From contig CAYZGU010000039.1 in assembly GCA_964478165.1 (NCBI GenBank), forward strand, positions 7,963 to 71,962: a stretch of DNA of 64,000 bases, given 5' to 3'. The position numbers were made by a program, and so were the translations under genes. This document shows, in pieces, positions 1,592 through 58,405 of the stretch. This stretch comes from an uncultured bacterium. Its GTDB lineage: Bacteria > Poribacteria > WGA-4E > JAJDTR01. The notes beneath the pieces are model-generated. The model did not search any database, was not told the origin of the DNA, and saw nothing but the letters and a program-made list of their open reading frames with translations. Every line of letters starts with the position of its first letter. Position 1 is the stretch's first letter.

Positions 1592-3424
1592 CTACTGCAT
1601 CTCCTTCGATAAAACCCCGACTAACACATCGAGATGAACGTGCCGGAAGAATTCCGACAGCCTTTTTTGCTTAGGCTTTTCCGGCAGTAGGATGAAGTCC
1701 GATCGCTTTTGTTGGATCTGTTCAAAGACCTTTCGATAAGCGTTGCTTGTCGCATAAGCAATCGTAAGCTTGTAATGCCCCTCGTACCTGTTGAGGTAGT
1801 CGTTGAATCGGTTTGCACAAAGCTGGATTTGATTTGTGTCGTGGGAAGATAATTGGAACTCGTAGCGTAGTACAGCTTCTTCCGATTCGAATTCCTCAGG
1901 TACGGGGCCATAAAGGCCCGACAGCGTTACTTTGTGGATAGCATCTTGGCGTTCTCCGAGGCCATCGCGGAGCTTTGTGCTGACAATGGTGTGTGTGCGC
2001 GAGCGAGAGTACGGCTTTTTCCCCGCACACGGGATAGTCAAGAGAATGTCCTTGTGTTCAGGTGGTTGATATTCGGGAGCGATAACGAAGGAATTGGGTG
2101 TGTAGTTCAAAGAAATCGGTACTGCTCCCAGGTGTTGGTGCGGGCGTTTTGTCCATGTCGGGAGAGTGACAATCCGTTTAGCTAGTCGTTTGGAAAATTG
2201 ATTGTCATGCTCGCCGAGCCATCCGACTGCATTTTGAATGCCACGAGCATTAGTGGCGTGCTTAACTAAAGCTTCGAGCGCTTGATCAGATTCAATTGCC
2301 AGTTTCATGTCTCTTAGCGTTTTCGCGTCCATTTCGAAGTTGTGGAGCGCGATTGCCGCATAATACTCGCTTTTATATTTTCCTGTCGAAGTCCTTTGAT
2401 AACTTTTGGCTTCCATGAATGCCTGCTGCATCTCTTCGAGTGGAGTGTTTCGACAAACGTGGCATTTGCAGCCTATTGTATCCAATTCCATGACCTTGAG
2501 TTTCTGTTGAGTTTTAGGGTCGGAATAGCTAAGATTCCTTGCGGCCTGGATATAACTTGTGCTATCAAAGCTATCAACTCCTAAGTATGCCAGTATAGGG
2601 GTCAGATTTCCAGAAACTCCGAAGGCATGAATGGGGGTTTGGCGTCGCTTTGATGGTGAGAGAGCGTCGATTACACCGCAAATTCGGGATAGCACTGCTG
2701 AATCATCGAATCCACGTAGAGGTACGAGGGAGCCCACCGCAAGTCCGAACGAAGGTAGGAGACCTTGTACTCGTTCGAAGACTTGAATTACGTAGTTTCG
2801 GACGTCTTCTCTAGATTGTCCGTGACAGCAGATATATAGAAACGGTGGATTAGGTTTGTCGGCAAGGATTTCCGCTACGCGCGTAGCATTGTCGATGCTG
2901 CGTTTCATTCGATTCTCAGCCTCATCGCGTGCAAGGTTTGGAGGGAGGGGATAATCCAATGACGCGAGAATCTCGCCACCGAGATTGAGTTGAAATTCGA
3001 GAATGTCCTCTGCTTCTTTGTCCTTCCGAATTCCATATTGTGAAAGATCTAACCCCGCATTGTAAAGCAACTTGAAGCCCCCTGAATCGAGAAAGATAGG
3101 TGCACCATACGACGCACCGACCTCTTTGTAGCGCTCGCGCATCGGTTTATCTCGCCAGTATGCGATATGGCGGGCCGTGAGGTTGAAATCGAGAAAGTGG
3201 AGCACTTGAGATAACATCGGTACATCTCGTTTCATGAAGTCTCTCAAAAGGTATTTCCAGATACCACCACCACGTGGACTTGTTCCGGTCATGAATGAAC
3301 TGACTGGATACATTATCGGTGTTGGTAAAGCCGATAACGCTTTGCCTTTTCTCATCAAGTTCAATTCGCCGATTCTGCCAGCATTTCGTTCGATTTTCGT
3401 TTGGTATGTTGGTGTGCTGGTCAT
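1592..3424 (-). CDS. tRNA-guanine transglycosylase (TGT) family protein with a ~230-aa C-terminal DUF5591-like extension (archaeosine-synthase-like architecture)
   Basis: 610 aa. TGT hallmarks in order: ETPxxMPV-like N-terminus (LPTPIMYPVSSFMTG), nucleophile region FLDSGGFKL, GLAVGSL, HAFGVSGN, GVDSFDSTSY, and the Zn motif CKCHVC...H. The C-terminal third (LLTIPCAGKKPYSRS...LSGLYGPVPEEFE) lies outside the TIM barrel and resembles the DUF5591 domain of ArcS-type proteins. Confidence 0.7.
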   Translation of the reverse strand: MTSTPTYQTKIERNAGRIGELNLMRKGKALSALPTPIMYPVSSFMTGTSPRGGGIWKYLLRDFMKRDVPMLSQVLHFLDFNLTARHIAYWRDKPMRERYKEVGASYGAPIFLDSGGFKLLYNAGLDLSQYGIRKDKEAEDILEFQLNLGGEILASLDYPLPPNLARDEAENRMKRSIDNATRVAEILADKPNPPFLYICCHGQSREDVRNYVIQVFERVQGLLPSFGLAVGSLVPLRGFDDSAVLSRICGVIDALSPSKRRQTPIHAFGVSGNLTPILAYLGVDSFDSTSYIQAARNLSYSDPKTQQKLKVMELDTIGCKCHVCRNTPLEEMQQAFMEAKSYQRTSTGKYKSEYYAAIALHNFEMDAKTLRDMKLAIESDQALEALVKHATNARGIQNAVGWLGEHDNQFSKRLAKRIVTLPTWTKRPHQHLGAVPISLNYTPNSFVIAPEYQPPEHKDILLTIPCAGKKPYSRSRTHTIVSTKLRDGLGERQDAIHKVTLSGLYGPVPEEFESEEAVLRYEFQLSSHDTNQIQLCANRFNDYLNRYEGHYKLTIAYATSNAYRKVFEQIQQKRSDFILLPEKPKQKRLSEFFRHVHLDVLVGVLSKEMQ

Positions 3425-5254: not shown

Positions 5255-5896
5255 TTGGAGCTGTCTTCAATGAAACTGACAACAGGAGTTATCCTAGCTG
5301 GTGGAAATAGCCAGCGAATGGGCCAGAACAAAGCGCTGATGGAGCTAAATGATGAAACAGTCATTGAACGTGTTCTACGACCTCTCCGAATCGCTACTGC
5401 GAATGTCCTCCTAGTTACAAATACACCACAATTATATGCCCACTTGCGCTTGCCTATGTACAAGGATCTTGTTCCAGGTACAGGTGCTCTCGGCGGAATC
5501 TACACAGGACTTCACTACGCCACGAGTAATGCTGTGCTTTGCGTTGCGTGTGATATGCCACGGCTACAATCAAGCCTGATGAATTATCTGGTGTCGGTCT
5601 TGGGAAATTACGATGCTGTTGTGCCTTGCATACGGAGCGCGGACTCGGCTGGACAGAGTTTCGAAACGCTATGCGCGGTCTACACCAAGCGTTGTACCCA
5701 TGCTATCAGTCAATTGCTTGATGAAGGTGAATTGCGTGTGCATGCTCTGCTTGATCGTATCTCGGTTCGTACTGTCGAGCCGGAGGAATGGACTGAGTTC
5801 GATCCACATGGGGTCTCGTTTTCGAATCTTAACACGCCCCTAGATTTCGAAAGAGTGAAGGGGCGATTAGTTAAAGAGAAGGTGGAGGAGATATAG
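5255..5896 (+). CDS. mobA: Molybdenum cofactor guanylyltransferase MobA
   Basis: GVILAGGNSQRMG nucleotidyltransferase N-terminal motif; about 200 aa; immediately followed by moeA. The start may instead be the Met at 5270. Confidence 0.8.
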   Translation: MELSSMKLTTGVILAGGNSQRMGQNKALMELNDETVIERVLRPLRIATANVLLVTNTPQLYAHLRLPMYKDLVPGTGALGGIYTGLHYATSNAVLCVACDMPRLQSSLMNYLVSVLGNYDAVVPCIRSADSAGQSFETLCAVYTKRCTHAISQLLDEGELRVHALLDRISVRTVEPEEWTEFDPHGVSFSNLNTPLDFERVKGRLVKEKVEEI

Positions 5897-5897
5897 G

Positions 5898-7112
5898 ATG
5901 TTAACGGTCGAACAAGCGCGTGAGCGAATGCTAGGTACGATTGGCGTATTGCCAACCGAAAGGCGAGGTATATTGGATTGTCTAGGTTATGTGCTAGCAG
6001 AAGACATCTATGCAGCGGAGCACATCCCTCCGTTTGATAACTCCGCCATGGATGGTTTTGCCGTAATCGCCCAAGACGTGCAAGGTGCAGTCCGAGATCG
6101 ACCTGTACAACTATCGGTCACTGAAACTATCGCTGCCGGGTATGCACCGACAAACGAGCTTGAATCGGGACAGGCCGCGCGCATCATGACTGGTGCTATG
6201 TTGCCAAACGGTGCAGATTCGGTCGTTATGCAAGAAGTTGTGGAATTGGATGGGAACAAGGTAAGAATCCTTGAGCGTGTGGAAGAGGCCGAAAATGTGC
6301 GGTTCACTGGAGAAAGCGTGAAACGCGGAGATCTCGTTATGGAAAGAGGAAAGTTCCTGCGCGCACAAGAGTGTTCGATGCTGGCTTCGCTGAACCAGTC
6401 GGATGTTCTGGTTCACAGGCGGCCACGGGTCGCGGTTGTTTCCACGGGCGATGAATTGACCTCACTTGGACAAGCGTTGGAACCCGGCAAGATTCGTGAC
6501 AGCAATCGTTATGGCATCTATGCGCAACTTCAAGAGGCGGATTGCATACCAATTGACATGGGAATTGCGCCCGATGACGAGTTGGAAACGGAGAGAATCT
6601 TCCGAGATGGTCTGAGTCGCGCAGATGCTCTGATTACCAGTGGTGGTGTTTCAGTTGGACAGTATGATGTTGTTAAGACGGTATTATCCAGGCTCGGGAA
6701 AGTTCAGTTCTGGCGAGTGGCCATGAAGCCGGGAAAACCCCAAGCGTATGGTCTCGCAGCCGGGAAGCCGATTTTTGGATTGCCTGGAAATCCCGTGTCC
6801 TCGCTTGTCGTGTTTGAGCTTTTCGTTCGCCCATCCCTCCTAAAAATGGCCGGGCATTCGAACCTATTTCGTCCTAACTTCAGGGCAATTTTAGGAGAAA
6901 ATATTGTCAACAAAGATAAACGCGTCAACTATATGCGTGCGATTATCAAGGAGAATGGAGGAAAATACCACGCAATGACTACCGGGGCACAGGGATCCGG
7001 AATCCTCTACTCTCTCGTTCTAGCAAATGGATTTATCGTTGTGCCAGGCGGGGTGTCACTCGATGCGGGGGACGAGGTAGATGCCCAGTTTTTGGGTGAT
7101 GTTCCAGGCTAA
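5898..7112 (+). CDS. moeA: Molybdopterin molybdenumtransferase MoeA (gephyrin E-domain family)
   Basis: 404 aa. MoeA-like N-terminus (ARERML...ERRGILDCLGYVLAEDIYA) and the GGVSVGxYD and GLPGNPVS motifs. Starts 2 nt after the mobA stop. Confidence 0.85.
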   Translation: MLTVEQARERMLGTIGVLPTERRGILDCLGYVLAEDIYAAEHIPPFDNSAMDGFAVIAQDVQGAVRDRPVQLSVTETIAAGYAPTNELESGQAARIMTGAMLPNGADSVVMQEVVELDGNKVRILERVEEAENVRFTGESVKRGDLVMERGKFLRAQECSMLASLNQSDVLVHRRPRVAVVSTGDELTSLGQALEPGKIRDSNRYGIYAQLQEADCIPIDMGIAPDDELETERIFRDGLSRADALITSGGVSVGQYDVVKTVLSRLGKVQFWRVAMKPGKPQAYGLAAGKPIFGLPGNPVSSLVVFELFVRPSLLKMAGHSNLFRPNFRAILGENIVNKDKRVNYMRAIIKENGGKYHAMTTGAQGSGILYSLVLANGFIVVPGGVSLDAGDEVDAQFLGDVPG

Positions 7113-44132: not shown

Positions 44133-47100
44133 ATGAAGCACTCATGGAGAGGTCAATTTGTGTTTTGCCTCGTAGTCGTGACTGTCTTTTGCGTTTTGAG
44201 TTTACTGCTAGGTTGCAAGAAGGAAGTAACTCGCAAAGCCGATTGGGAAACCCATTTCACAGCCCTGCATTTTATTGATCCTAAACATGGATGGGTTGTC
44301 GGGCGAGGAGGTCTAATCATCCACACGGCTGATAGTGGAAAAACATGGGCAAAACAAGAGGTCGATACGAATGGCGACTTCAAGTCCGTCTGCTTTACAA
44401 ATAGGCGCTTTGGTTGGGCTGTTGGAGACGAAGGACTTATTGCGACGACGGATGATGGCGGACGTCATTGGTATCTTCAGCACAGTGGAACGTGGGCATT
44501 CTTGCGTGACGTCTTTTTCGCCAATTCCAACGAGGGGTGGATTGTTGGTGAAAGCGCTGATGTGCTGTATACCCAAGATGGCGGAAAGACATGGAAACGC
44601 CAAGAATTCGTGAGTGAATTCCCTCTTAGTGGTGCATGCTTTGTGGACAATCGCCGGGGCTGGGTCGTCGGAGAACAGGATCGTATTTTGCACACTAATG
44701 ACGGTGGGAGAACCTGGCGTAACCAGAGCAATCGATTTGAGGGCGAAAGAGACCGCATGATCAATGACAATAAGCAGGTCTTCTTTATCAATCGAAATAA
44801 AGGATGGATTGTTGGTAGCGACGGTTCCATATTCCATACAAGAAACGGCGGGGTTCGATGGACACGTCAGGATAGCCGTATTCCGCTCATTAACGGACAC
44901 GTCCGAGACACAATTAATAGCGTTCACTTTGTTGATGAGAATCGTGGCGTGGCGGTGGCTGATATCGGTTTTATCACTTTGACGATGGATGGTGGAGACA
45001 ATTGGCGATTGTTGGAAAGTGGAACTGAGAATAACCTTACCGGAATTCAGTTTGTTACGCAAAAAGAGGCGTGGGCGGTTGGCTGGTATGGGAGTATTCT
45101 GCATTCGAAAGATGGTGGTGAAACGTGGGAAATGGTTAGTGGAACAACGGCCAACGACCTAGAGAATGTTCAGTTTGCCGATGCCAATCGTGCGATTGCT
45201 GTTGGCAAGCGTGGTACAATTGCAATGAGTCAAGATGCCGGGAAAACGTGGACGGAGATTGAAAGTGATATATGGGACAATATTCGCAACATTTTTTTTG
45301 TTTCTGACAAAGAAGGTTGGGCGGTTGGCGAACGCGGTATGGTTGTCCATTCGATTGACGGCGGACAATCATGGGAACGTCAGGACAGCGGTTGGGGCAA
45401 TGTCCTTACTGCCGTTCATTTTGTCACACCACAAAAAGGGTGGATCGTCGGCGAACTTGGAACGGTACTTCACACTGCCAATGGTGGAGAGTCGTGGGTG
45501 CCGCAGACTCCAGGCGAATGGCAATCGCTTAAGGGTGTTTTCTTTCTGAATGAGAACGAAGGTTGGGCGGTCGGTTGGCCTGGGACAGTTATTCACACTA
45601 ACAATGGCGGGATGACCTGGACGAACCAGACTACAAATACTTACAATGAGCTATATGCGGTTTATTTTGTTGATCCCGACAAGGGTTGGATTTCTGGTCA
45701 GTTCGGAGAGATTTTGTCCACAAAGGATGGTGGTCAAACATGGAAATTTCAACGCAGCGGGACCGAGGCGAACTTGAACAAGATTTATTTCGCGAATTCA
45801 ACACATGGAATCATTGTGGGTGACAATGGGACAATCCTGACCACGGTAGATGGTGGTGTGAAATGGCAGCTGCAGGAGAGCGGGACAGAGAATGACCTCT
45901 ACGGATTTGCACTCTCCAGTGAAGGGATGGTTGCTGTTGGCAAAGGAGGTATTGCCATGCGGTACTCTGTCGATGCTGCCGAACTACCGGTCGAGCTGCC
46001 TCCGGTTTCAGATCGGATTCAGGTCGGAGTTCAAATTCAAGAGCTGTCCACTGTCGAAGAAGTGAGTTATCAATGGGAGATTATCCGCCAGGCAACATGG
46101 GAAACTGACTTTAACGACACCTGTTTTGTCGATAATAAACGGGGTTGGGCGGTCGGAACCGGGGGTGTAATTGCGCACACAATAGACAGCGGGAAAATAT
46201 GGAAACCACAGCATAGCGGCGTGGAGATAGACTTGTATCAAATCGATTTTCTGAATGCTCAACACGGATGGATTACCGGTAGTGGAGTGTTGTTGCGCAC
46301 TGAGAACGGCGGTGAGACATGGCAGGTTATTCGAAAGGTGTTGCAGAATTTTCGTGACATCAGTTCCATACAATTCATTACACCTAAAGAAGGATGGCTT
46401 GCCGTCGATGAAGGACAAACGCTACATACAATTGATGGGGGTTTAACTTGGAAGCTTCAGAAAACGGGTGCCACGAATAAAGCAATTACCGATCTACACT
46501 TTATCAACGGCCAAGAAGGTTGGGCTGTTGTGCCACAACGCCGCGATGGGGGCTACATTCTACATACGGTGAATGGTGGTGATTATTGGCAGATTCAATC
46601 AAAAACCAATCAGTTAGGTCTTGCAATTCACTTTACAGATGCCAAATATGGTTGGATAGTTGTTGGAAATGGGACTTCGCTTATTACGAGCGATGGTGGT
46701 CTCACATGGACGCGTCGGGCATCTAAACTTGCGGGTCGTATTCATCGGGTAAAAATACGTAGTGACAAGGAGGCTTGGGCAGTTGGACGCGATGGCGAGA
46801 TTCTCTTAACACGTGACCAAGGAGTCACATGGGAGTCAATCTATGTCGATCACACCCCTGACAAGATGAGCTTGGCGCTGGTGAATGAGAGTATGCAACC
46901 GGCCAAAGAATCTGTGGAGAAACTGACAAGAGTCGAGTCGGATGGCGATACAACTCGCGTAACAATCGAAGAGAATCCCGTAGAGGCGTTCCAAAATAGG
47001 CTTCGCAATCGGCGTCAACGTTCCGGTCGGTTCGCGCCAGAAGGCGGGGAAATTGATCTGGAGACACGGTCGAAACCCACAGAGTCAGTGACTCCACCTG

Positions 47101-48140
47101 AATCGAGGCGCACTCCTCCTAGCTCAGCACAACAGATTGTGGGTTTTTACTTTGTTAACGATCAAGACGCTTGGGCCGTTGGTAAATACGGTCATATCTA
47201 TCGAACGAAGGATGCTGGACATTCTTGGACAAGACAGCTCGGTGAGAAGCTCGATGATTTCCGCGATGTGCTGTTTGTGGATGGAGACAATGGTTGGATT
47301 GCCGGGGATAACGGATTGTTACTAGAGACGCAGGATGGTGGTCGGAAGTGGGTCCCCGTCAAAAGTGGCATTCACCAAAAGATAATAGGTGTTCACTTTG
47401 CTAGCCTTGATCCAAAGTGGGGTTGGGTGATGAGACGCGACGGGACCGTGTTTTATACAACTGATGGAGAAAATTGGTCCGCGGGGACGACGCCAACCCG
47501 TCCACCTCTATTTGAGGAGGACCAACCACGTCCATTTGCTATGAATGACGTAGGTTTCAGCCAGTTTTCCGAAGGATGGGCAGTTGGGAACGATGGACAA
47601 ATAATCCACAATCAAGATGGTGGCCCTATTTGGATCGCGCAGCGCACGACGACGGGCAGGGACCTGGTGGACGTGGAAACAAAGTTTGTTCCTCTGGCTT
47701 GGGCGGTAGGATCCGGGGGGACTGTGCAGAGGACGATTAACGGTGGTGGATATTGGAAGCTTCATGAGACTAACACTGGCTACGATCTCAATGGGGTTTC
47801 ATTTCTTGAGAAAAGGAAGGGGTGGGCGGTTGGTCGTTATGGTATAACTCTGCGTACAACCGACGGTGGTTTTACTTGGCGGGCCCAATCGAGTGGAACG
47901 ACAACCGATTTCTACGACATTCTCGCGGTCTCTGAAGAGGAAATCTATGTCGTTGGGGCCAATGGAACAGTGCTTCACTCGATTGATGGTGGTAAGACAT
48001 GGAATAAGCAACACACAGACATTGACAATGATCTCTACGCCATTACTTACGCGCAAGACAGCAATGTGCTGTGGGTTGTTGGCGAGTGGGGTGTTGTGTT
48101 ACGGCAAGAGATTGCTACTAATAAACTTCCGCTTCATTGA
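44133..48140 (+). CDS. Giant lipoprotein made of about 27 BNR/Ycf48-like beta-propeller blades (probably four propellers)
   Basis: 1335 aa. Signal peptide with LLLGC lipobox. Roughly 42-aa repeats, each with GW(A/I)VG...ILHT.DGG.TW (27 D/NGGxTW-type motifs counted), interrupted by two charged linkers. Confidence 0.8.
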   Translation: MKHSWRGQFVFCLVVVTVFCVLSLLLGCKKEVTRKADWETHFTALHFIDPKHGWVVGRGGLIIHTADSGKTWAKQEVDTNGDFKSVCFTNRRFGWAVGDEGLIATTDDGGRHWYLQHSGTWAFLRDVFFANSNEGWIVGESADVLYTQDGGKTWKRQEFVSEFPLSGACFVDNRRGWVVGEQDRILHTNDGGRTWRNQSNRFEGERDRMINDNKQVFFINRNKGWIVGSDGSIFHTRNGGVRWTRQDSRIPLINGHVRDTINSVHFVDENRGVAVADIGFITLTMDGGDNWRLLESGTENNLTGIQFVTQKEAWAVGWYGSILHSKDGGETWEMVSGTTANDLENVQFADANRAIAVGKRGTIAMSQDAGKTWTEIESDIWDNIRNIFFVSDKEGWAVGERGMVVHSIDGGQSWERQDSGWGNVLTAVHFVTPQKGWIVGELGTVLHTANGGESWVPQTPGEWQSLKGVFFLNENEGWAVGWPGTVIHTNNGGMTWTNQTTNTYNELYAVYFVDPDKGWISGQFGEILSTKDGGQTWKFQRSGTEANLNKIYFANSTHGIIVGDNGTILTTVDGGVKWQLQESGTENDLYGFALSSEGMVAVGKGGIAMRYSVDAAELPVELPPVSDRIQVGVQIQELSTVEEVSYQWEIIRQATWETDFNDTCFVDNKRGWAVGTGGVIAHTIDSGKIWKPQHSGVEIDLYQIDFLNAQHGWITGSGVLLRTENGGETWQVIRKVLQNFRDISSIQFITPKEGWLAVDEGQTLHTIDGGLTWKLQKTGATNKAITDLHFINGQEGWAVVPQRRDGGYILHTVNGGDYWQIQSKTNQLGLAIHFTDAKYGWIVVGNGTSLITSDGGLTWTRRASKLAGRIHRVKIRSDKEAWAVGRDGEILLTRDQGVTWESIYVDHTPDKMSLALVNESMQPAKESVEKLTRVESDGDTTRVTIEENPVEAFQNRLRNRRQRSGRFAPEGGEIDLETRSKPTESVTPPESRRTPPSSAQQIVGFYFVNDQDAWAVGKYGHIYRTKDAGHSWTRQLGEKLDDFRDVLFVDGDNGWIAGDNGLLLETQDGGRKWVPVKSGIHQKIIGVHFASLDPKWGWVMRRDGTVFYTTDGENWSAGTTPTRPPLFEEDQPRPFAMNDVGFSQFSEGWAVGNDGQIIHNQDGGPIWIAQRTTTGRDLVDVETKFVPLAWAVGSGGTVQRTINGGGYWKLHETNTGYDLNGVSFLEKRKGWAVGRYGITLRTTDGGFTWRAQSSGTTTDFYDILAVSEEEIYVVGANGTVLHSIDGGKTWNKQHTDIDNDLYAITYAQDSNVLWVVGEWGVVLRQEIATNKLPLH

Positions 48141-52880: not shown

Positions 52881-52930
52881 TCAAATTGCGTCCTTACCCT
52901 TAATTACCATTAAGCATAAGGACGCAATTT
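52881..52930 (+). terminator. 15-bp stem hairpin 35 nt downstream of the peroxiredoxin stop
   Basis: CAAATTGCGTCCTTA / TAAGGACGCAATTTG with a 20-nt loop, followed by GGGGGCC rather than a U-tract. Confidence 0.3.
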
Positions 52931-53058: not shown

Positions 53059-53907
53059 ATGCACTATCTGACGCGCCAGGCCACATTTGAAGCCTCACAC
53101 TTCTACTGTATTCCAGGTGTAAGTCATGAAGAAAACTATCGAATCTTTGGTTCAAGCGCGAATCCAAACGGGCATGGACACAACTATGTAGTTGAAGTGA
53201 CTATTAGGGGAACTGTCTCCGAAGAACATGGAATGGTTATTAATATTGCGGAGCTTGATAGACTTCTCAAAGATCAAGTGCTTGTGTGCTATGATCACAA
53301 AAATTTAAATCGTCAACATCTCATATTTTCGAAAAATCCCCATCTTCAGCCGACGAGCGAGAACATTGCAATCCAGATATGGTCCGCACTTACGCCTGTT
53401 CTTAAACTAGCGCAACTATATCGTATTCGACTACGTCAGGACTCATCTCTGTTTGCTGATTACTATGGAGAAGAACAGATGGTTTACCTTACGAAAGCCT
53501 ACGAATTCAGTGCTTCGCATTGCTTGCACAGTCAACATCTCAGTGACAAGGAGAACCTGCAGATTTTTGGCAAATGCAACAATCCACATGGCCATGGTCA
53601 TAATTACGTGCTTGAGGTGACAATAAAGGGAGACGTCCTGCCTAAAACAGGCATGATTGCCAATCTTGATCTCCTTGATGAAATCGTACAAGAACAGGTT
53701 TATGCGAGATTTGACCACAAGCATCTCAACCTTGACACGCCGGAATTCGGAGATCTCAATCCAACGTCCGAGAATTTTGTAACAGTGATTTGGAATGTTT
53801 TAGAACCGACTTTGGGATCTGTGACTCTACATCGCCTTCGGTTGAAAGAAACACCTAAGAACTACTTTGACTATTACGGTGAATCATCAGAGGTTGACAT
53901 CTTATGA
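53059..53907 (+). CDS. Fused tandem 6-pyruvoyl-tetrahydropterin synthase (two PTPS domains)
   Basis: Two about 140-aa PTPS halves. The second has the eukaryote-type catalytic site [14 protein letters not shown]. The first has [14 protein letters not shown], with Cys replaced by Ser. The stop overlaps the folE start (ATGA). Confidence 0.8.
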
Positions 53908-54599
53908 ATGATGCGAAGGAGACTGTGCTTCTCGAGCGGATAGAAGCCCTGGAAGCTGAGATTGCTACATCTAAAATACGTGAACAACAATTAGATGAGA
54001 AACTGGAATCTACAACGTCGATTGAAGAACAATCCACAATGGTAGATTTGCATTTGGAGGATATTTTTGCCCAGGTGTTGCTGCGAATTGGTGAAGATTC
54101 CTCGAGGAGCGGGTTAATAAAGACCCCGCATCGTGCGTCTAGAGCGCTCTCCTTTTTAACTCAGGGCTATCATCAAAATGTTGAGGGGATTTTGAACAAT
54201 GCCATCTTTGAAGAAGAATATGACGACATGGTAATTGTTAAAGACATTGAATTTTACAGTTTGTGTGAACATCACATACTTCCGTTTTTTGGAAAATGCC
54301 ACGTGGGCTATATTCCGCAAAAGAAGATTGTCGGTCTGAGCAAGATACCTCGTATTGTGGACATGTTTTCCCGCCGGTTGCAAGTGCAAGAGAGATTAAC
54401 ATTCCAGATCGCTCAAGCATTGGAGAGCTCACTCAAACCACTCGGTGTTGCGGTTGTGATGGAAGCACAGCACATGTGCATGATGATTCGCGGTGTCGAA
54501 AAACAGCACTCACAAACAATGACAAATGTGATGCTAGGGGCGTTTAGGAATGAAGATTCAACGCGATCAGAGTTTATGAAGTGCTTTCAGATCTCATGA
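53904..54599 (+). CDS. folE: GTP cyclohydrolase I
   Basis: [10 protein letters not shown], ...QERLT... and a size typical of FolE. Confidence 0.9.
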
Positions 54600-54748
54600 C
54601 GGTTAGGACACTCATGAGGCAGGCCTTCGAAGGAACATCAGAAGCTTTTTAAATGATAATGGTCTTTTTATACGGGACGTTCAGGTTGTCGAAAAACTCT
54701 GTTTCGCTGTTTTAACGATGGTAGTTTTCTTATTTTAACGGAGCTGTT

Positions 54749-55474
54749 GTGAACGAACACATGTTGAAGGATAAGGTTGTATTAATTACGGGAGCGTCAC
54801 GCGGAATTGGTGCAGAAACAGCTTTGGCGTTTGGGCGCGCTGGCGCAAAAGTGGTATTGGCTGCGCGGAAGGAACACGAAGTGGAAGCTGCAGCGGAGCG
54901 TGTGCGTGACAACGGAGGTGAGGCGCTCGCCTTGGTAGCTGATGTGACTAAAGCCGATCAAGTTGAAAATCTGATCCAGTTAGCACTCCGCAGTTACGAA
55001 AACATTGACATTTTAGTGAACAATGCTGGAGCTGCTGGTTTCGGTCGCGTGGTTGATTTTGATCCATTGCTTTGGAACACTGTCATTGAATCAAATCTCA
55101 CAAGTATCTATCTTTGTTCGAGATATGTTCTAGGACCAATGCTTGCCCGAAAATCGGGGCAGATTATCAATGTGTTGTCGGTTGCGGCCACTACAACCTT
55201 CAGAAATTCAGGGGCTTATTGTGCCGCGAAATCGGGTGCCTTAGCGCTTACGAAGGTCTTATCAGAGGAAGTCCGGCAAGAAAACATTCGAGTTACGGCC
55301 GTTTTACCGGGTTCCACACATACTGGATTTTGGGACGGAATGGAAACGCATCCAGACTTCGATCTGATGTTAAAGCCTGCGCATGTCGCATCGACAATCC
55401 TCTCTGTTGCTATACAGCCACTTGGAATGGTAATTGATGAGGTTACTGTTACACCGCCTCTCGGAATCTTGTAA
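54749..55474 (+). CDS. Short-chain dehydrogenase/reductase (candidate sepiapterin/pteridine reductase)
   Basis: TGASRGIG cofactor motif, NNAG, and the S...YxxxK triad (YCAAK). Located directly after PTPS-folE. Confidence 0.8.
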   Translation: MNEHMLKDKVVLITGASRGIGAETALAFGRAGAKVVLAARKEHEVEAAAERVRDNGGEALALVADVTKADQVENLIQLALRSYENIDILVNNAGAAGFGRVVDFDPLLWNTVIESNLTSIYLCSRYVLGPMLARKSGQIINVLSVAATTTFRNSGAYCAAKSGALALTKVLSEEVRQENIRVTAVLPGSTHTGFWDGMETHPDFDLMLKPAHVASTILSVAIQPLGMVIDEVTVTPPLGIL

Positions 55475-55519: not shown

Positions 55520-56944
55520 TTACGCTGTTGTTTCCGATTTGATGAACTTAGATTGCGTGCTCCGGATTCGTACTTTCCGAATCCGCCGTGCGTCGGCGTC
55601 CGCTATGGTGATAATTAGGCTCTCTGTATTGACTTTATCCCCTGATTTTGGAATTGTACCGGTGTGGTTCAGAATGTAGCCTGCTACTGTTTTGTAGTCG
55701 CCTGATGGGATGGCGACATCATACTGTTCCGACAGAACGTTTACTTCTGTTCTTCCGTCACATTCTAGAAGACGTGGACTAATCAGCCGCAGCGATTCTG
55801 GTTCGTCCCGTTCATCTGAAAACTCCCCGATGATTTCCTCTACCAAATCCTCCACAGTGGTTAATCCCACTATTCCGCCATATTCATCTACGACGAACAC
55901 CATAGTGTGATGACTTTGTTGTATTTCTTTGAGGAGTACGTTCGTGTTTTTCGATGCGGGAACGTATTGTAGGTTTTTGCGAATAAACGGTTCAAGAGCC
56001 TCCGACTCACCATTGGAATAGATGACATCAAGCAGATTAACAACCCCGATGATATTGTTGATCTGTTCCTCGTATACAGGAACGCGTGAGATGCCGGCTT
56101 CAGAGGCTGTCTGCAAAAACGTATCAATTTGTGTTGATTTGTCGACGGCGATGATGTCAACTAGAGGCACCATCACCTGCTCAACGGTTCGGTTGTGAAG
56201 ATTTAGAACACTGTGAATCATTCTTCGTTGATTCTTTAAAATGCGTCCTGATTGTTCACCGATTGTGGCTAGAAGACGTAGTTCGTCGCGTTGGGTGTCG
56301 GGCGACGTAGGCGCGGATCGCTTGTCGGCAATTCTAACGAGAAAATTTGCAAGATAACTCATTACGGTTACGATGGGACGGAAGGCTATATCGGAAATAC
56401 GTAGAACGCTGGAATAGCGTAGTGCAAGCGAATCAGCCCTGGCCCGAAAAATCGTCTTGGGAAGAATTTCGCCAAAAATTAAAATCAATCCGGTTGAGAT
56501 CAAGGTCGCAGCAGCTTCTTGGCTCGTTTGCAGTGTTGAAAGCAGGGTCTGAGTCACCTCTGACATTTGTAACAGGGCTATTACAAATAACAATCCCATT
56601 TGAGATGCCATGACATTCGCGATGTTAGTCCCCATGAGGGTCATCCCGAGTGTTCTTTCAGGAGTTTGAAGCAATCTTCTCAGAATCTCAGCTTTTCTGT
56701 TTCCTTCTTCGGCGCGCTGATATATGCTGTGTTTGTCGAGCGAGACGGTTGCCGTCTCCAAACCTGAGTAGAGGGCGGATAAGAGTACAAAAATTAAAAG
56801 ACCGATAGCGAGAAAGGCGAATCGGACGAGACCGGTTGTCCAAAAGTCCGCCGGCGCACTTGGGGCGGTTGCTCCGAGCAGAAAAGCGCAACAAACTATA
56901 ATCTTAATGGTCTTAAGCGCAAATTTTCCATCCATCGAAGACAA
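55520..56944 (-). CDS. CNNM/CorC-family transporter (DUF21 TM domain, CBS pair, CorC_HlyC)
   Basis: 474 aa. Four-helix DUF21 N-terminus, tandem CBS domains, and a C-terminal transporter-associated domain. Confidence 0.8.
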   Translation of the reverse strand: MSSMDGKFALKTIKIIVCCAFLLGATAPSAPADFWTTGLVRFAFLAIGLLIFVLLSALYSGLETATVSLDKHSIYQRAEEGNRKAEILRRLLQTPERTLGMTLMGTNIANVMASQMGLLFVIALLQMSEVTQTLLSTLQTSQEAAATLISTGLILIFGEILPKTIFRARADSLALRYSSVLRISDIAFRPIVTVMSYLANFLVRIADKRSAPTSPDTQRDELRLLATIGEQSGRILKNQRRMIHSVLNLHNRTVEQVMVPLVDIIAVDKSTQIDTFLQTASEAGISRVPVYEEQINNIIGVVNLLDVIYSNGESEALEPFIRKNLQYVPASKNTNVLLKEIQQSHHTMVFVVDEYGGIVGLTTVEDLVEEIIGEFSDERDEPESLRLISPRLLECDGRTEVNVLSEQYDVAIPSGDYKTVAGYILNHTGTIPKSGDKVNTESLIITIADADARRIRKVRIRSTQSKFIKSETTA

Positions 56945-57040
56945 TTCCTAGTCAGAAAAGGTATAGCTGAGTGTAATTGGCTTTTGGAATCTAGTATTCC
57001 TGCATTCCAGCCTTAGGTATCAGTAGACGGCCGACTACCA

Positions 57041-58405
57041 TTATTTCGATGTTTGTACAGATTCTGCATCGTGTTCGGGGAGGGTCATTATCACAACGCC
57101 GACGAAATTCCCTTCCATTGCTGCAATTTCAAAGCGAACGCCGCTTTCTTCAATCTGAGATTCTCCAACTTCTGGAACCCGGCCAAAAATTCCAAGAACG
57201 AATCCTCCAATGGTATCTGCAGTGTACTCATTAAGCTTTAGTGAGAATTGTTGATTTATGGATTTTACGGTAACTCGGCCGGATACCTCAATTAGAGATG
57301 GATTGTCTGCATAAGGAAGAATGTCGGGGGACTTCAGAGTCGTGTCATGTTCATCGACAATATCGCCCACGACTTCCTCAAGGACATCTTCAATCGTGAC
57401 TATCCCAGATACGCCACCGTACTCATCCAATAGAATTCCCATTTTCGTCTTCTGCCGGGTGAGTTCGAATAGCAAATCAGCCAGTTTCTTGGTTTCAAGA
57501 ACGAAGAAGGGTTGACGGATAAGAGTATCTTCAGATTTCGAATCTCCTAGAAGATGTCGTCGGACGAGAAAATTTTCGATGGTCATTTCTCGTATGTCCA
57601 GATGTCTCCACACGGGTACATCCTTGACTTGAAAGATTCCGCAGATGTCATCTATTTGCTTTCGATAGATTGGAATTCGTGAGAATCCAAATTGTTTGGA
57701 TTTTTCCAGAATCTCCTGGACAGTCGCGGACGCTTCTACGGCAATCATCTCTGTACGTGGCACCATAATCTCCCTGGCCTCGATCTCGCGTAGCTGGAGC
57801 ACGTTGTCTAGGATTTCCCGTTCATTAGCGTGTAGTATTACACCATCATTTTTGTTGAGGATAGCCCTAAAATCTGCAGCGGTTAGTCTCTCTGTGTTTG
57901 GGATATCACTTCCACCGAACAGAGGCATTAATAGCTCAATGATGCCTCTCAGCAGAGTGCGTAAAGGTGAGATTAAGATGGAGAATATCCAAAGCGGGCG
58001 CGCTGTGATGCGTGCAAAAATCTCCGCGTATCTAATTGCGTAGGTCTTGGGCGTAATTTCGCCAAAAATTAGAACAGGCAGTGTAATCGACAGGGTCGCA
58101 ATGCAAAACTTGGCGACTTCTCCGAGGTTTTCGAAAAAGGGCAAGCGACGGATGAGGGAGTAAGCTATTGTCGTAAAAGCGACGTTAACGAAGGTATTAC
58201 CAAGTAAAAGGGTGATGAATAATCGACGGGGATTGTCGACGAAGTTCAGAATCGCAATGGTTTTCCTCTTTTTCTCAGTACGGAGGCGTTCGACCTCTAT
58301 CTTAGTCAGAGCGCACAAGGCGGTCTCCGAACCGGAGAAAAAGCCAGATATAAGGAGTAGCAACCCCAATGCTATGAGGTGAGGCAAAAGTTGGTCAATT
58401 TCCAT
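57041..58405 (-). CDS. CNNM/CorC-family transporter (paralog of the adjacent gene)
   Basis: 454 aa with the same DUF21-CBS-CorC architecture (GEITPK, DEYGG...G.VT.ED). Confidence 0.8.
   Translation of the reverse strand: MEIDQLLPHLIALGLLLLISGFFSGSETALCALTKIEVERLRTEKKRKTIAILNFVDNPRRLFITLLLGNTFVNVAFTTIAYSLIRRLPFFENLGEVAKFCIATLSITLPVLIFGEITPKTYAIRYAEIFARITARPLWIFSILISPLRTLLRGIIELLMPLFGGSDIPNTERLTAADFRAILNKNDGVILHANEREILDNVLQLREIEAREIMVPRTEMIAVEASATVQEILEKSKQFGFSRIPIYRKQIDDICGIFQVKDVPVWRHLDIREMTIENFLVRRHLLGDSKSEDTLIRQPFFVLETKKLADLLFELTRQKTKMGILLDEYGGVSGIVTIEDVLEEVVGDIVDEHDTTLKSPDILPYADNPSLIEVSGRVTVKSINQQFSLKLNEYTADTIGGFVLGIFGRVPEVGESQIEESGVRFEIAAMEGNFVGVVIMTLPEHDAESVQTSK

What the first reader, a model, noticed from the sequence alone, without database searches (positions are those of the whole stretch)
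53059..55474. folE - fused double PTPS - SDR operon: a tetrahydropterin (BH4-like) pathway
GTP cyclohydrolase I overlaps (ATGA) a two-domain PTPS. The C-terminal half of that PTPS carries the animal-type catalytic Cys ([14 protein letters not shown]); the N-terminal half has Ser at that position. An SDR that could act as sepiapterin or pteridine reductase follows. Together these three genes match the three-step GTP to tetrahydropterin route, which is uncommon in bacteria. A PTPS with one catalytically silent half is itself notable.
Basis: partly seen in the sequence, partly recalled or inferred. Interest (0 to 1): 0.55.

Follow-up and report, generated by a model that had tools for sequence, protein, structure and literature searches.

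The report
Tetrahydrobiopterin-type pterin operon in Poribacteria
Three adjacent genes in this sponge-associated (Poribacteria-like) bacterium most likely make a tetrahydrobiopterin-type cofactor from GTP with an already described two-domain bacterial synthase, so this is a well-supported but largely ordinary new example of a known pathway.

Summary
The genes are real and lie at the stated coordinates. The order is tandem PTPS (53059-53907), then folE (53904-54599, ATGA overlap), then SDR (54749-55474), not folE first as the title says.

The C-terminal PTPS half carries the PTPS-II signature CxxxxxHGH and scores far closer to rat PTPS than to QueD. The N-terminal half has Ser at the Cys position.

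Dual-domain bacterial PTPS was already described in 2006 (Kong et al.). Here the architecture appears in Poribacteria, Binatia, Acidobacteriota (often as two split genes), Bacillales, Nitrospirota, Armatimonadota, Chloroflexota and Cyanobacteria.

The SDR is not a random FabG-like neighbour. Orthologues sit next to the tandem PTPS in six phyla. Their family profile hits Chlorobium tepidum sepiapterin reductase as the best single-domain solved structure, though by only about 3 bits. They also keep that enzyme's Phe99 and Trp196 equivalents.

One new detail: all 120 Poribacteria-like clusters lack the N-half Cys yet keep its Asp-His dyad. The C half keeps Cys but has lost its own His in 83 of 120. 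This suggests a composite active site.

Verdict: new member of a known kind.

The parts
52884..52929 (+). Strong hairpin in the 212-nt spacer after the upstream 1-Cys peroxiredoxin gene. It probably marks the 5' boundary of the transcription unit.
   Evidence: a 13-bp outer stem plus an inner stem; the spacer folds at -63.4 kcal/mol, z = -2.56. There is no U-tract, so a terminator function is inferred only. No Rfam family matches.
53059..53478 (+). N-terminal T-fold half of the tandem PTPS (aa 1-140). The Zn ligands (H14, H39, H41), the D79-H80 dyad and T99/E101 are kept. The catalytic Cys is replaced by Ser33 (codon 53155-53157). The pterin-anchoring Glu is replaced by Gln127.
   Evidence: Residues were mapped onto rat PTPS through the alignment. 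The N half scores 94 bits to rat PTPS.
53479..53907 (+). C-terminal T-fold half of the tandem PTPS (aa 141-282 plus stop). It has the complete PTPS-II catalytic set: H154, C173 (codon 53575-53577), H179, H181, D219-H220, T236/S237/E238 and E264.
   Evidence: 125.5 bits to rat PTPS 1b66 and 124.4 bits to human 3i2b. The CxxxxxHGH motif is defined in PMC5041015.
53904..54599 (+). folE, Zn-type GTP cyclohydrolase I (CEHH and HMC motifs present), translationally coupled to the PTPS gene through the ATGA overlap. It has a roughly 50-aa N-terminal extension.
   Evidence: It lies directly downstream of the PTPS gene in all 10 Poribacteria loci and in many other phyla.
54749..55474 (+). Sepiapterin-reductase-like classical SDR. 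It has TGxxxGIG, an Arg after beta2 (which suggests NADPH use), S144/Y157/K161, F98 and W195 (equivalent to C. tepidum SR F99 and W196), and a C-terminal PPLGIL.
   Evidence: The GTG start is supported by the conserved N-terminus in L002 and L010. The 149-nt spacer after folE has no stable structure and no terminator-like site.

Best explanation
This is a three-gene unit for making a biopterin-type tetrahydropterin from GTP.

Proposed pathway (every enzymatic step is inferred from homology, not shown):
- FolE converts GTP to 7,8-dihydroneopterin triphosphate.
- The bimodular PTPS-II converts that to 6-pyruvoyl-tetrahydropterin.
- The NADPH-dependent SDR, a bacterial sepiapterin-reductase-type enzyme, reduces the two side-chain keto groups to give tetrahydrobiopterin. 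The product may be the L-threo isomer, because the SDR keeps the two residues named, in a 2008 paper title, for a role in that stereochemistry in the Chlorobium enzyme.

Proposed organisation of the PTPS:
- It is one polypeptide with two T-fold domains packed side by side, like urate oxidase.
- Catalysis is carried by the C-terminal half, which has Zn ligands, Cys173 and Glu264.
- The N-terminal half has lost the catalytic Cys, and in this genome also the pterin-anchoring Glu.
- The N half probably acts as an obligatory partner. It would donate the neighbouring-subunit residues (Thr99/Glu101 and, in Poribacteria, Asp79-His80) that a homo-oligomeric PTPS takes from other subunits.

What the cell uses the pterin for is unknown.
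For: Shown by tools:
- Domain identities and the ATGA coupling.
- The C half has the PTPS-II motif and scores 125.5 bits to rat PTPS against 34 to QueD (motif definitions in PMC5041015).
- The PTPS2-folE-SDR trio is present in 10 of 10 Poribacteria loci, even where the upstream genes differ.
- In an all-against-all clustering of about 1000 neighbour genes from 83 loci, FolE and this SDR family are the only two families that recur next to the tandem PTPS across many phyla. The few other multi-phylum clusters are small and mostly transporter or regulator genes.
- The SDR is adjacent in six phyla.
- The PTPS-linked SDRs form one family. They score 287-341 bits to their own profile, C. tepidum SR scores 206, E. 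coli FabG 151 and three of the four SDRs initially classed as unlinked in the same loci 87-140; the fourth, L015:2487-3167, scores 170 and carries the family signatures.
- C. tepidum SR 2bd0 is the best single-domain PDB hit of the family profile and aligns end to end.
- The F99 and W196 equivalents are conserved. Their role is named in references 15 and 20 of PMC7520308.
- The AF2 model has pLDDT 95.4 and pTM 0.90.
- In 120 of 120 Poribacteria-like clusters, the N half has no Cys but keeps D-H, and the C half keeps Cys.
- The N-half TxE motif is kept even in lineages whose N-half Zn/Cys site has decayed.

From the literature:
- A dual-domain bacterial PTPS makes BH4 in Synechococcus (Kong 2006, cited and summarised in PMC5041015).
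- PTPS has an intersubunit catalytic triad (title of Burgisser 1995, reference b7 of PMC2229834; His71'' in QueD, PMC9894224).
Against: - There are no biochemical data for any Poribacteria protein.
- The margin of 2bd0 over other SDR structures is small: 207 bits against 204, 203.5, 201 and 200.
- With the single window sequence, a cyanobacterial FabG (4rzh) scores higher than 2bd0 (133 against 108 bits).
- The best NCBIfam model, PRK07454, is an unnamed 'SDR family oxidoreductase', and the window SDR falls below its cutoff (218.6 against 234).
- No pterin-dependent hydroxylase, pterin-4a-carbinolamine dehydratase or pterin glycosyltransferase is present in the 64-kb window.
- The rest of the genome could not be searched, so no consumer of the cofactor is known.
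- This folE may also be the housekeeping copy that feeds folate and queuosine synthesis.
- The composite-site idea fits Poribacteria but not the cyanobacterial pattern, where the N half has D-F and the C half has D-H.
Confidence: 0.72

Rival explanations
1. FolE and the tandem PTPS make 6-pyruvoyl-tetrahydropterin or another pterin, but the SDR is a functionally unrelated neighbour (a FabG-like or YdfG-like ketoreductase). The final reduction, if it happens at all, is done elsewhere.
For: - The window SDR alone scores best to FabG structures.
- Source annotations of its orthologues read 'YdfG' or '3-oxoacyl-ACP reductase'.
- A 149-nt gap separates it from folE.
- Cyanobacteria, Nitrospirota and most Acidobacteriota loci have no adjacent SDR.
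Against: - Adjacency recurs in six phyla with otherwise unrelated flanking genes.
- The linked SDRs form one family with shared signatures: W195, F98 and the C-terminal PPxGxL.
- The closest characterised enzyme of the family profile is a sepiapterin reductase.
- There is no terminator-like site or stable structure in the spacer.
Confidence: 0.12
2. The tandem PTPS is really a QueD-type 6-carboxy-tetrahydropterin synthase, and the locus feeds 7-deazaguanine (queuosine or archaeosine-like) synthesis.
For: - The full protein passes the TIGR03367 QueD cutoff (120.7 against 89.25 bits).
- NCBI names some orthologues '6-carboxytetrahydropterin synthase'.
- A TGT/DUF5591 protein is encoded 50 kb away in the window.
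- PMC5041015 warns that similarity to rat PTPS can mislead.
Against: - The motif is CxxxxxHGH, not Cx3HGH or Cx4HGH (PMC5041015, PMC9894224).
- The individual halves fall below the QueD cutoff.
- The score is 34 bits to E. coli QueD against 125.5 to rat PTPS.
- No recurrent neighbour-gene cluster in the 83 loci other than FolE and the SDR was linked to 7-deazaguanine synthesis, and no queC or queE turned up in the window annotation or among the ten neighbour clusters annotated; most neighbour genes were not annotated.
- The linked partner is an SR-like SDR.
Confidence: 0.05
3. The PTPS acts as a PTPS-III-type bypass of dihydroneopterin aldolase in folate synthesis, with folE as the first folate step.
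For: folE is shared with folate synthesis. PTPS-III enzymes cluster with folate genes in other bacteria (PMC5041015).
Against: - Neither half has a Glu at the ExxHGH position.
- No folK, folP or folB turned up in the window annotation or among the ten neighbour clusters annotated.
- The SR-like SDR partner has no role in that route.
Confidence: 0.03

Closest known systems
Bimodular bacterial PTPS (bPTPS-II) of Synechococcus sp. PCC 7942 and other cyanobacteria (Kong et al. 2006, FEBS Lett 580:4900; cited in PMC5041015)
   Same: - Same two-PTPS-domain polypeptide of about 280-290 aa.
- Same PTPS-II CxxxxxHGH motif in the C half.
- Cyanobacterial orthologues align over the full length at 37-43% identity.
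- That enzyme has canonical PTPS activity, according to PMC5041015.
   Different: - In cyanobacteria the gene stands alone, with no adjacent folE or SDR.
- The N half there usually keeps Cys but has lost the His of the Asp-His dyad (D-F).
- Poribacteria show the reverse: no Cys in the N half, D-H kept in the N half, and the His often lost in the C half.
Mammalian 6-pyruvoyl-tetrahydropterin synthase (rat 1b66/1gtq, human 3i2b)
   Same: - The C half scores about 125 bits, with all Zn ligands, Cys42, Asp88-His89, Thr105/Glu107 and Glu133 equivalents present.
   Different: The mammalian enzyme is a single-domain subunit forming a homohexamer with six identical sites. Here two unequal domains are fused, and only one of them carries the catalytic Cys.
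Chlorobium tepidum sepiapterin reductase (PDB 2bd0; Supangat et al. 2006, 2008, references 15 and 20 of PMC7520308)
   Same: - Same short classical SDR of about 240 aa.
- It is the best single-domain PDB hit of the PTPS-linked SDR family profile, aligned end to end.
- Ser-Tyr-Lys, Phe99 and Trp196 equivalents are conserved.
   Different: - It scores only 206 bits to the family profile, against 287-341 for members, so it is a relative rather than a clear orthologue.
- Its top NCBIfam model is PRK07326, not PRK07454.
- The Chloroflexota members have Val at the Phe99 position.
Bimodular T-fold enzymes: urate oxidase, GTP cyclohydrolase IB / DUF198 (2r5r), bimodular QueF
   Different: Different chemistry, and sequence identity of only 6-8%. 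The oligomeric state of the tandem PTPS is unknown.

Membership tests
PTPS-II (COG0720 subfamily, biopterin synthesis) | Signature motif CxxxxxHGH (PMC5041015) | tested here: met
   The C half reads C173-NNPHG-H179-G-H181. The Cys is invariant in 120 of 120 Poribacteria-like clusters and in 142 of 147 others. The N half has SxxxxxHGH, so the motif is not met there.
PTPS-II (COG0720 subfamily, biopterin synthesis) | Zn ligands (His23, His48, His50), Asp88-His89 dyad and Glu133 pterin anchor of rat PTPS | tested here: met
   The C half has H154, H179, H181, D219-H220 and E264. The N half has the three His and D79-H80, but Q127 instead of Glu.
PTPS-II (COG0720 subfamily, biopterin synthesis) | Converts dihydroneopterin triphosphate to 6-pyruvoyl-tetrahydropterin | not testable with these tools
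   This needs an enzyme assay. It is inferred from the motif and from 125.5 bits to rat PTPS.
PTPS-II (COG0720 subfamily, biopterin synthesis) | Co-occurrence or clustering with a sepiapterin reductase (the criterion used in PMC5041015) | tested here: met
   An SR-like SDR lies within 1 kb in Poribacteria (10 of 10 loci), Binatia, Acidobacteriota, Bacillales, Armatimonadota and Chloroflexota.
Dual-domain bacterial PTPS (bPTPS-II, Kong 2006) | Two PTPS domains in one polypeptide, orthologous to the cyanobacterial enzyme | tested here: met
   There are two PF01242 stretches. Full-length tblastn matches to cyanobacterial 290-aa proteins run at 37-43% identity. C halves across phyla are closer to the window C half than to its N half in over 99% of cases.
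QueD / PTPS-I (6-carboxy-tetrahydropterin synthase) | Motif CxxxHGH (or Cx4HGH in QueD2) and clustering with queC/queE | tested here: not met
   Neither half has a Cys 4 or 5 residues before HGH. The score to E. coli QueD is 34 bits. No queC or queE turned up in the window annotation or among the ten neighbour clusters annotated.
PTPS-III (folate bypass) | Motif ExxHGH | tested here: not met
   The residue 3 positions before HGH is Pro in both halves.
Bacterial sepiapterin reductase (C. tepidum type) | Classical SDR with a Ser-Tyr-Lys triad plus the Phe99 and Trp196 substrate-positioning residues | tested here: met
   S144, Y157, K161, F98 and W195 align to the 2bd0 residues. Trp is invariant in the 16 linked SDRs. 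Phe is present in 11 of 16 by this alignment (the remaining five have Val or Asn, although L030 carries a Phe one column away).
Bacterial sepiapterin reductase (C. tepidum type) | Closer to a characterised SR than to other SDR functions by sequence | tested here: inconclusive
   The family profile ranks 2bd0 first among single-domain chains, but by only about 3 bits. The single window sequence ranks FabG 4rzh first.
Bacterial sepiapterin reductase (C. tepidum type) | NADPH-dependent reduction of sepiapterin or 6-pyruvoyl-tetrahydropterin | not testable with these tools
   This needs an enzyme assay.
GTP cyclohydrolase I FolE (type IA) | Passes the curated equivalog model and has the Zn-binding Cys/His motifs | tested here: met
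   TIGR00063 scores 246.4 bits against 181.6, and NF006825 scores 262.6 against 174. The CEHH and HMCM motifs are visible in the translation.

The most novel reading that the evidence does not exclude
The two halves of the Poribacteria PTPS may have degenerated in a complementary way, so that neither could work alone.
- The C half supplies Zn, Cys and the Glu anchor.
- The N half supplies the cross-subunit Asp-His dyad (kept in 120 of 120 clusters although its own site has no Cys) and the Thr/Glu pterin contacts.
- The C half's own His is free to drift to Tyr or Phe (83 of 120).
- Cyanobacteria, Armatimonadota and Bacillales show the opposite partition, which would imply that different lineages assemble the same fused fold with different ring-to-ring registers.

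A second, weaker speculation is that the product (possibly L-threo-BH4) has a role in the sponge symbiosis.
Probability: 0.3. Interest if true: 0.45.

Novelty: new member of a known kind. Interest (0 to 1): 0.3.

Why it matters
It extends the predicted tetrahydrobiopterin pathway from cyanobacteria and green sulfur bacteria to Poribacteria and to several other non-phototrophic phyla: Binatia, Acidobacteriota, Armatimonadota, Chloroflexota and some Bacillales.

It gives a testable candidate for the bacterial sepiapterin reductase. That gene is currently annotated only as 'SDR family oxidoreductase', 'FabG' or 'YdfG' in these genomes.

It corrects the '6-carboxytetrahydropterin synthase' annotation carried by some Poribacteria orthologues.

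The complementary loss of catalytic residues in the two halves is a small but clean natural experiment on how T-fold active sites are shared between subunits.

None of this overturns current knowledge. The function of unconjugated pterins in non-phototrophic bacteria remains open, and this locus alone does not answer it.

Tried and rejected
- HMM libraries cannot separate PTPS subfamilies here. The full protein passes both the TIGR00039 and the QueD TIGR03367 cutoffs, and each half alone passes neither. Classification therefore rests on the published motifs.
- TIGR03112 ('6-pyruvoyl tetrahydropterin synthase-related domain') does not fit (28.9 bits against 69.35).
- A homology search with the SDR returned only Poribacteria orthologues with uninformative names.
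- An exact cluster look-up gave no organism names. The Poribacteria assignment rests on named homologues at 64-70% identity.
- Literature searches linking Poribacteria with pyruvoyl, biopterin or pterin found nothing relevant.
- Kong 2006 and Thony 2000 are not held in the library. They are cited only through reference lists, through the summary in PMC5041015, and from my own memory of the Kong abstract.
- No riboswitch or other Rfam family was found in the locus or the window.
- No sigma-70-like promoter or intrinsic terminator was found above shuffle expectation.
- I considered using the last homology search for phenylalanine hydroxylase. I rejected it because only the 120 best hits are listed, and these would not be Poribacteria.
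- Dihydropteridine reductase and PTR1/FolM-type pteridine reductases do not appear among the best 60 PDB hits of the SDR. Those functions are therefore less likely than SR.
Full report
**1. What is in the sequence**

- Three same-strand ORFs occupy 53059-55474.
- The first (53059-53907, 282 aa) has two Pfam PTPS stretches, E 3e-60.
- The second (53904-54599, 231 aa) is GTP cyclohydrolase I. It passes the curated FolE equivalog (246 bits against 181.6), and its ATG overlaps the PTPS stop in ATGA.
- The third (54749-55474, 241 aa, GTG start) is a classical SDR. Its N-terminus matches orthologues in L002 and L010, which supports the GTG start.
- The title's gene order is wrong. The PTPS gene comes first.
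- The upstream 212-nt spacer holds a strong hairpin at about 52884-52929, just after a 1-Cys peroxiredoxin gene.
- The 149-nt folE-SDR spacer has no stable structure (z = +1.46).
- There is no terminator-like site above chance and no Rfam match.
- Co-transcription of the three genes is plausible but inferred.

**2. Source organism**

- The best named homologues of the PTPS and the SDR are Candidatus Poribacteria MAG proteins at 64-70% identity.
- The exact proteins occur on unnamed ENA/NCBI metagenome contigs.
- I treat the window as a Poribacteria-like genome.

**3. Classifying the PTPS**

- PMC5041015 gives the diagnostic COG0720 motifs: PTPS-II has CxxxxxHGH, QueD/PTPS-I has CxxxHGH and PTPS-III has ExxHGH.
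- The C half is C-NNPHG-HGH, so it is PTPS-II. Neither half has the QueD or PTPS-III residue.
- Against solved structures, the C half scores 125.5 bits to rat PTPS and 124.4 to human PTPS, but only 34 to E. coli QueD.
- The N half scores 94 bits to rat PTPS.
- HMM libraries do not discriminate between the subfamilies.
- I mapped residues onto rat PTPS through the alignment (chain numbering plus 4).
- The C half has all of H23, C42, H48, H50, D88, H89, T105, E107 and E133.
- The N half has the three His, D-H and T/E, but Ser for Cys42 and Gln127 for Glu133.

**4. The dual-domain architecture is known and widespread**

- Reference 152 of PMC5041015 is Kong et al. [quoted passage not shown]
- PMC5041015 states that the Synechococcus PCC 7942 PTPS-II has canonical PTPS activity.
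- From my own memory of the Kong abstract, that enzyme is the bimodular one.
- A full scan of 50%-identity representatives found 221 clusters at E <= 1e-30. Most of the best 150 are 260-300 aa proteins matching across both halves.
- A genome scan found the tandem form in Poribacteria, Binatia, Acidobacteriota, Bacillales (Virgibacillus, Pontibacillus, Domibacillus), Nitrospirota, Armatimonadota, Chloroflexota (Herpetosiphon, Chloroflexus) and many Cyanobacteria, including Prochlorococcus.
- In many Acidobacteriota the two halves are separate adjacent genes.
- Some proteins of about 410 aa have three PTPS domains.
- PMC9894224 reports that PTPS-II makes up 21% of 34,387 PTPS-family sequences.
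- 'Uncommon' and 'notable' are therefore overstated.

**5. Predicted structure**

- An AF2 model built from a 34-sequence alignment is confident (pLDDT 95.4, pTM 0.90).
- The halves are therefore predicted to sit side by side, as in other bimodular T-fold proteins. This fits the 3-residue linker between the end of the first domain (…YYGE) and strand 1 of the second.
- In such a ring the domains alternate N-C-N-C, so the in-ring neighbour of every C half is an N half.

**6. Residue bookkeeping across the family**

| Feature | 120 Poribacteria-like clusters |
|---|---|
| N-half residue at the Cys42 position | never Cys (Ala 94, Thr 16, Ser 8, Pro 2) |
| N-half Asp-His dyad | 120 of 120 |
| C-half Cys | 120 of 120 |
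| C-half Asp | 120 of 120 |
| C-half His89 equivalent | Tyr 75, His 37, Phe 8 |

- Cyanobacteria, Armatimonadota and Bacillales show the opposite pattern: the N half has D-F, D-Q or D-G, and the C half has D-H.
- Of 268 tandem proteins, 267 keep D-H in at least one half.
- The N-half Thr/Glu pair is conserved even where the N-half Zn/Cys site has decayed (for example in Armatimonadota).
- PTPS is known to use an intersubunit catalytic triad (title of Burgisser et al. 1995, reference b7 of PMC2229834). In QueD the triad His comes from a subunit of the opposite ring (His71'', PMC9894224).
- The simplest reading is that in Poribacteria the only working sites are those of the C halves, completed by N-half residues.
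- This is inference. It does not explain the cyanobacterial pattern with the same ring register, and I leave that open.
- Gln127 in this window is a rare variant (2 of 120). It makes the N-half site even less likely to bind pterin here.

**7. The SDR**

Genome context:
- All-against-all clustering of about 1000 neighbour genes from 83 loci shows that FolE and this SDR family are the only two families recurring with the tandem PTPS across many phyla. A few small clusters, mostly transporter or regulator genes, also span two to four groups.
- The SDR lies within 1 kb in Poribacteria (10 of 10), Binatia (2 of 2), Chloroflexota (3 of 3, plus one unclassified bacterium), Bacillales (2 of 3), three Armatimonadota and two Acidobacteriota.
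- A third Bacillales member lies 2.8 kb away and carries the same signatures.
- It is not adjacent in Cyanobacteria or Nitrospirota.

Family features:
- The 16 linked SDRs align end to end with an invariant Trp195, Met207 and C-terminal GxL.
- Their best NCBIfam model is PRK07454 in five of six tested, often by 30-50 bits.
- The family profile hits C. tepidum sepiapterin reductase 2bd0 as the best single-domain structure (207 bits, residues 2-239), narrowly ahead of clavaldehyde dehydrogenase and others.
- The alignment places window F98 and W195 on 2bd0 F99 and W196. These are the two residues highlighted in PMC7520308 and named in the title of its reference 20 for their role in L-threo-BH4 production.
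- Dihydropteridine reductase and PTR1/FolM are not among the top PDB hits.
- I conclude that this is an SR-type enzyme, with moderate-to-good confidence.

**8. Surroundings**

- Pfam annotation of the window finds no aromatic amino-acid hydroxylase, no pterin-4a-carbinolamine dehydratase, no NOS and no pterin glycosyltransferase.
- Neighbours are a 1-Cys peroxiredoxin upstream (also upstream in L002), two CNNM/CorC transporters on the opposite strand downstream (conserved in Poribacteria), a Ser/Thr kinase and aroK-aroB.
- In Acidobacteriota a GT2 glycosyltransferase sits directly upstream of the split PTPS pair in 9 loci. This hints at pterin glycosides there.
- The use of the pterin in Poribacteria is unknown, and the rest of the genome could not be searched with the remaining caps.

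**9. Verdict**

- The interpretation, a GTP to tetrahydrobiopterin-type route, is supported by motif, similarity, cross-phylum gene linkage and SR-specific residues.
- It is not novel in kind. Dual-domain PTPS-II and bacterial BH4 synthesis were described in 2006 and earlier.
- New here are its presence as a compact operon in Poribacteria and several other phyla, a candidate SR family for those phyla, and the complementary residue loss between the halves.
- Interest is 0.3: new member of a known kind.

Noticed in passing
window 1592-3424 (-): A 610-aa protein combining a weak TGT (queuine/archaeosine tRNA-ribosyltransferase) domain (68 bits) with DUF5591. This is an ArcS/archaeosine-synthase-like architecture, which is unusual in a bacterium. 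It points to some 7-deazaguanine chemistry in this genome, 50 kb from the PTPS locus.
   Followed up: no
L017:5962-6885, L020:2117-2971, L021:6001-6894, L013:988-1941, L030:62-1018 and other Acidobacteriota loci: The two PTPS halves are encoded as two separate adjacent genes of about 135-150 aa, both usually with the catalytic Cys, followed by folE. This is the unfused counterpart of the tandem protein and implies a hetero-oligomeric PTPS.
   Followed up: partly
L018:4985-6070 and 8 other Acidobacteriota loci: A GT2-family glycosyltransferase sits directly upstream of the split PTPS pair. It is a candidate pterin glycosyltransferase of a different family from the cyanobacterial BGluT/PgtA.
   Followed up: partly
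proteins P0125, P0141, P0151, P0170, P0173 (377-421 aa): Proteins with three PTPS domains in one chain. This is enough to build a whole three-domain T-fold ring from one polypeptide. Their organisms were not identified.
   Followed up: partly
window 44133-48140 (+): A giant 1335-aa protein made of about 15 Ycf48/BNR-like beta-propeller stretches (PSII_BNR E 1e-127) with a signal-peptide-like N-terminus. It is conserved next to the locus in L002 (1336 aa).
   Followed up: no
window 53904-54060 (+): This FolE carries a roughly 50-aa N-terminal extension that looks like a coiled coil ([32 protein letters not shown]). It is absent from the 200-aa FolE of another Poribacteria genome (L003).
   Followed up: no
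window 52884-52929 (+): A near-perfect 13-bp inverted repeat (AAATTGCGTCCTTA ... TAAGGACGCAATTT) with an inner stem and no U-tract, between the peroxiredoxin gene and the PTPS gene. It gives only a weak chance-level Rfam hit.
   Followed up: partly
window 5255-7112 (+): MobA-like and MoeA genes (molybdopterin guanine dinucleotide cofactor synthesis). This is a second, unrelated pterin pathway in the window.
   Followed up: no
window 55520-58405 (-): Two tandem CNNM/CorC-type (CBS-domain) transporter genes lie immediately downstream on the opposite strand. They keep this position in all Poribacteria loci examined, even where the upstream genes differ. This is probably lineage synteny rather than a functional link.
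   Followed up: partly
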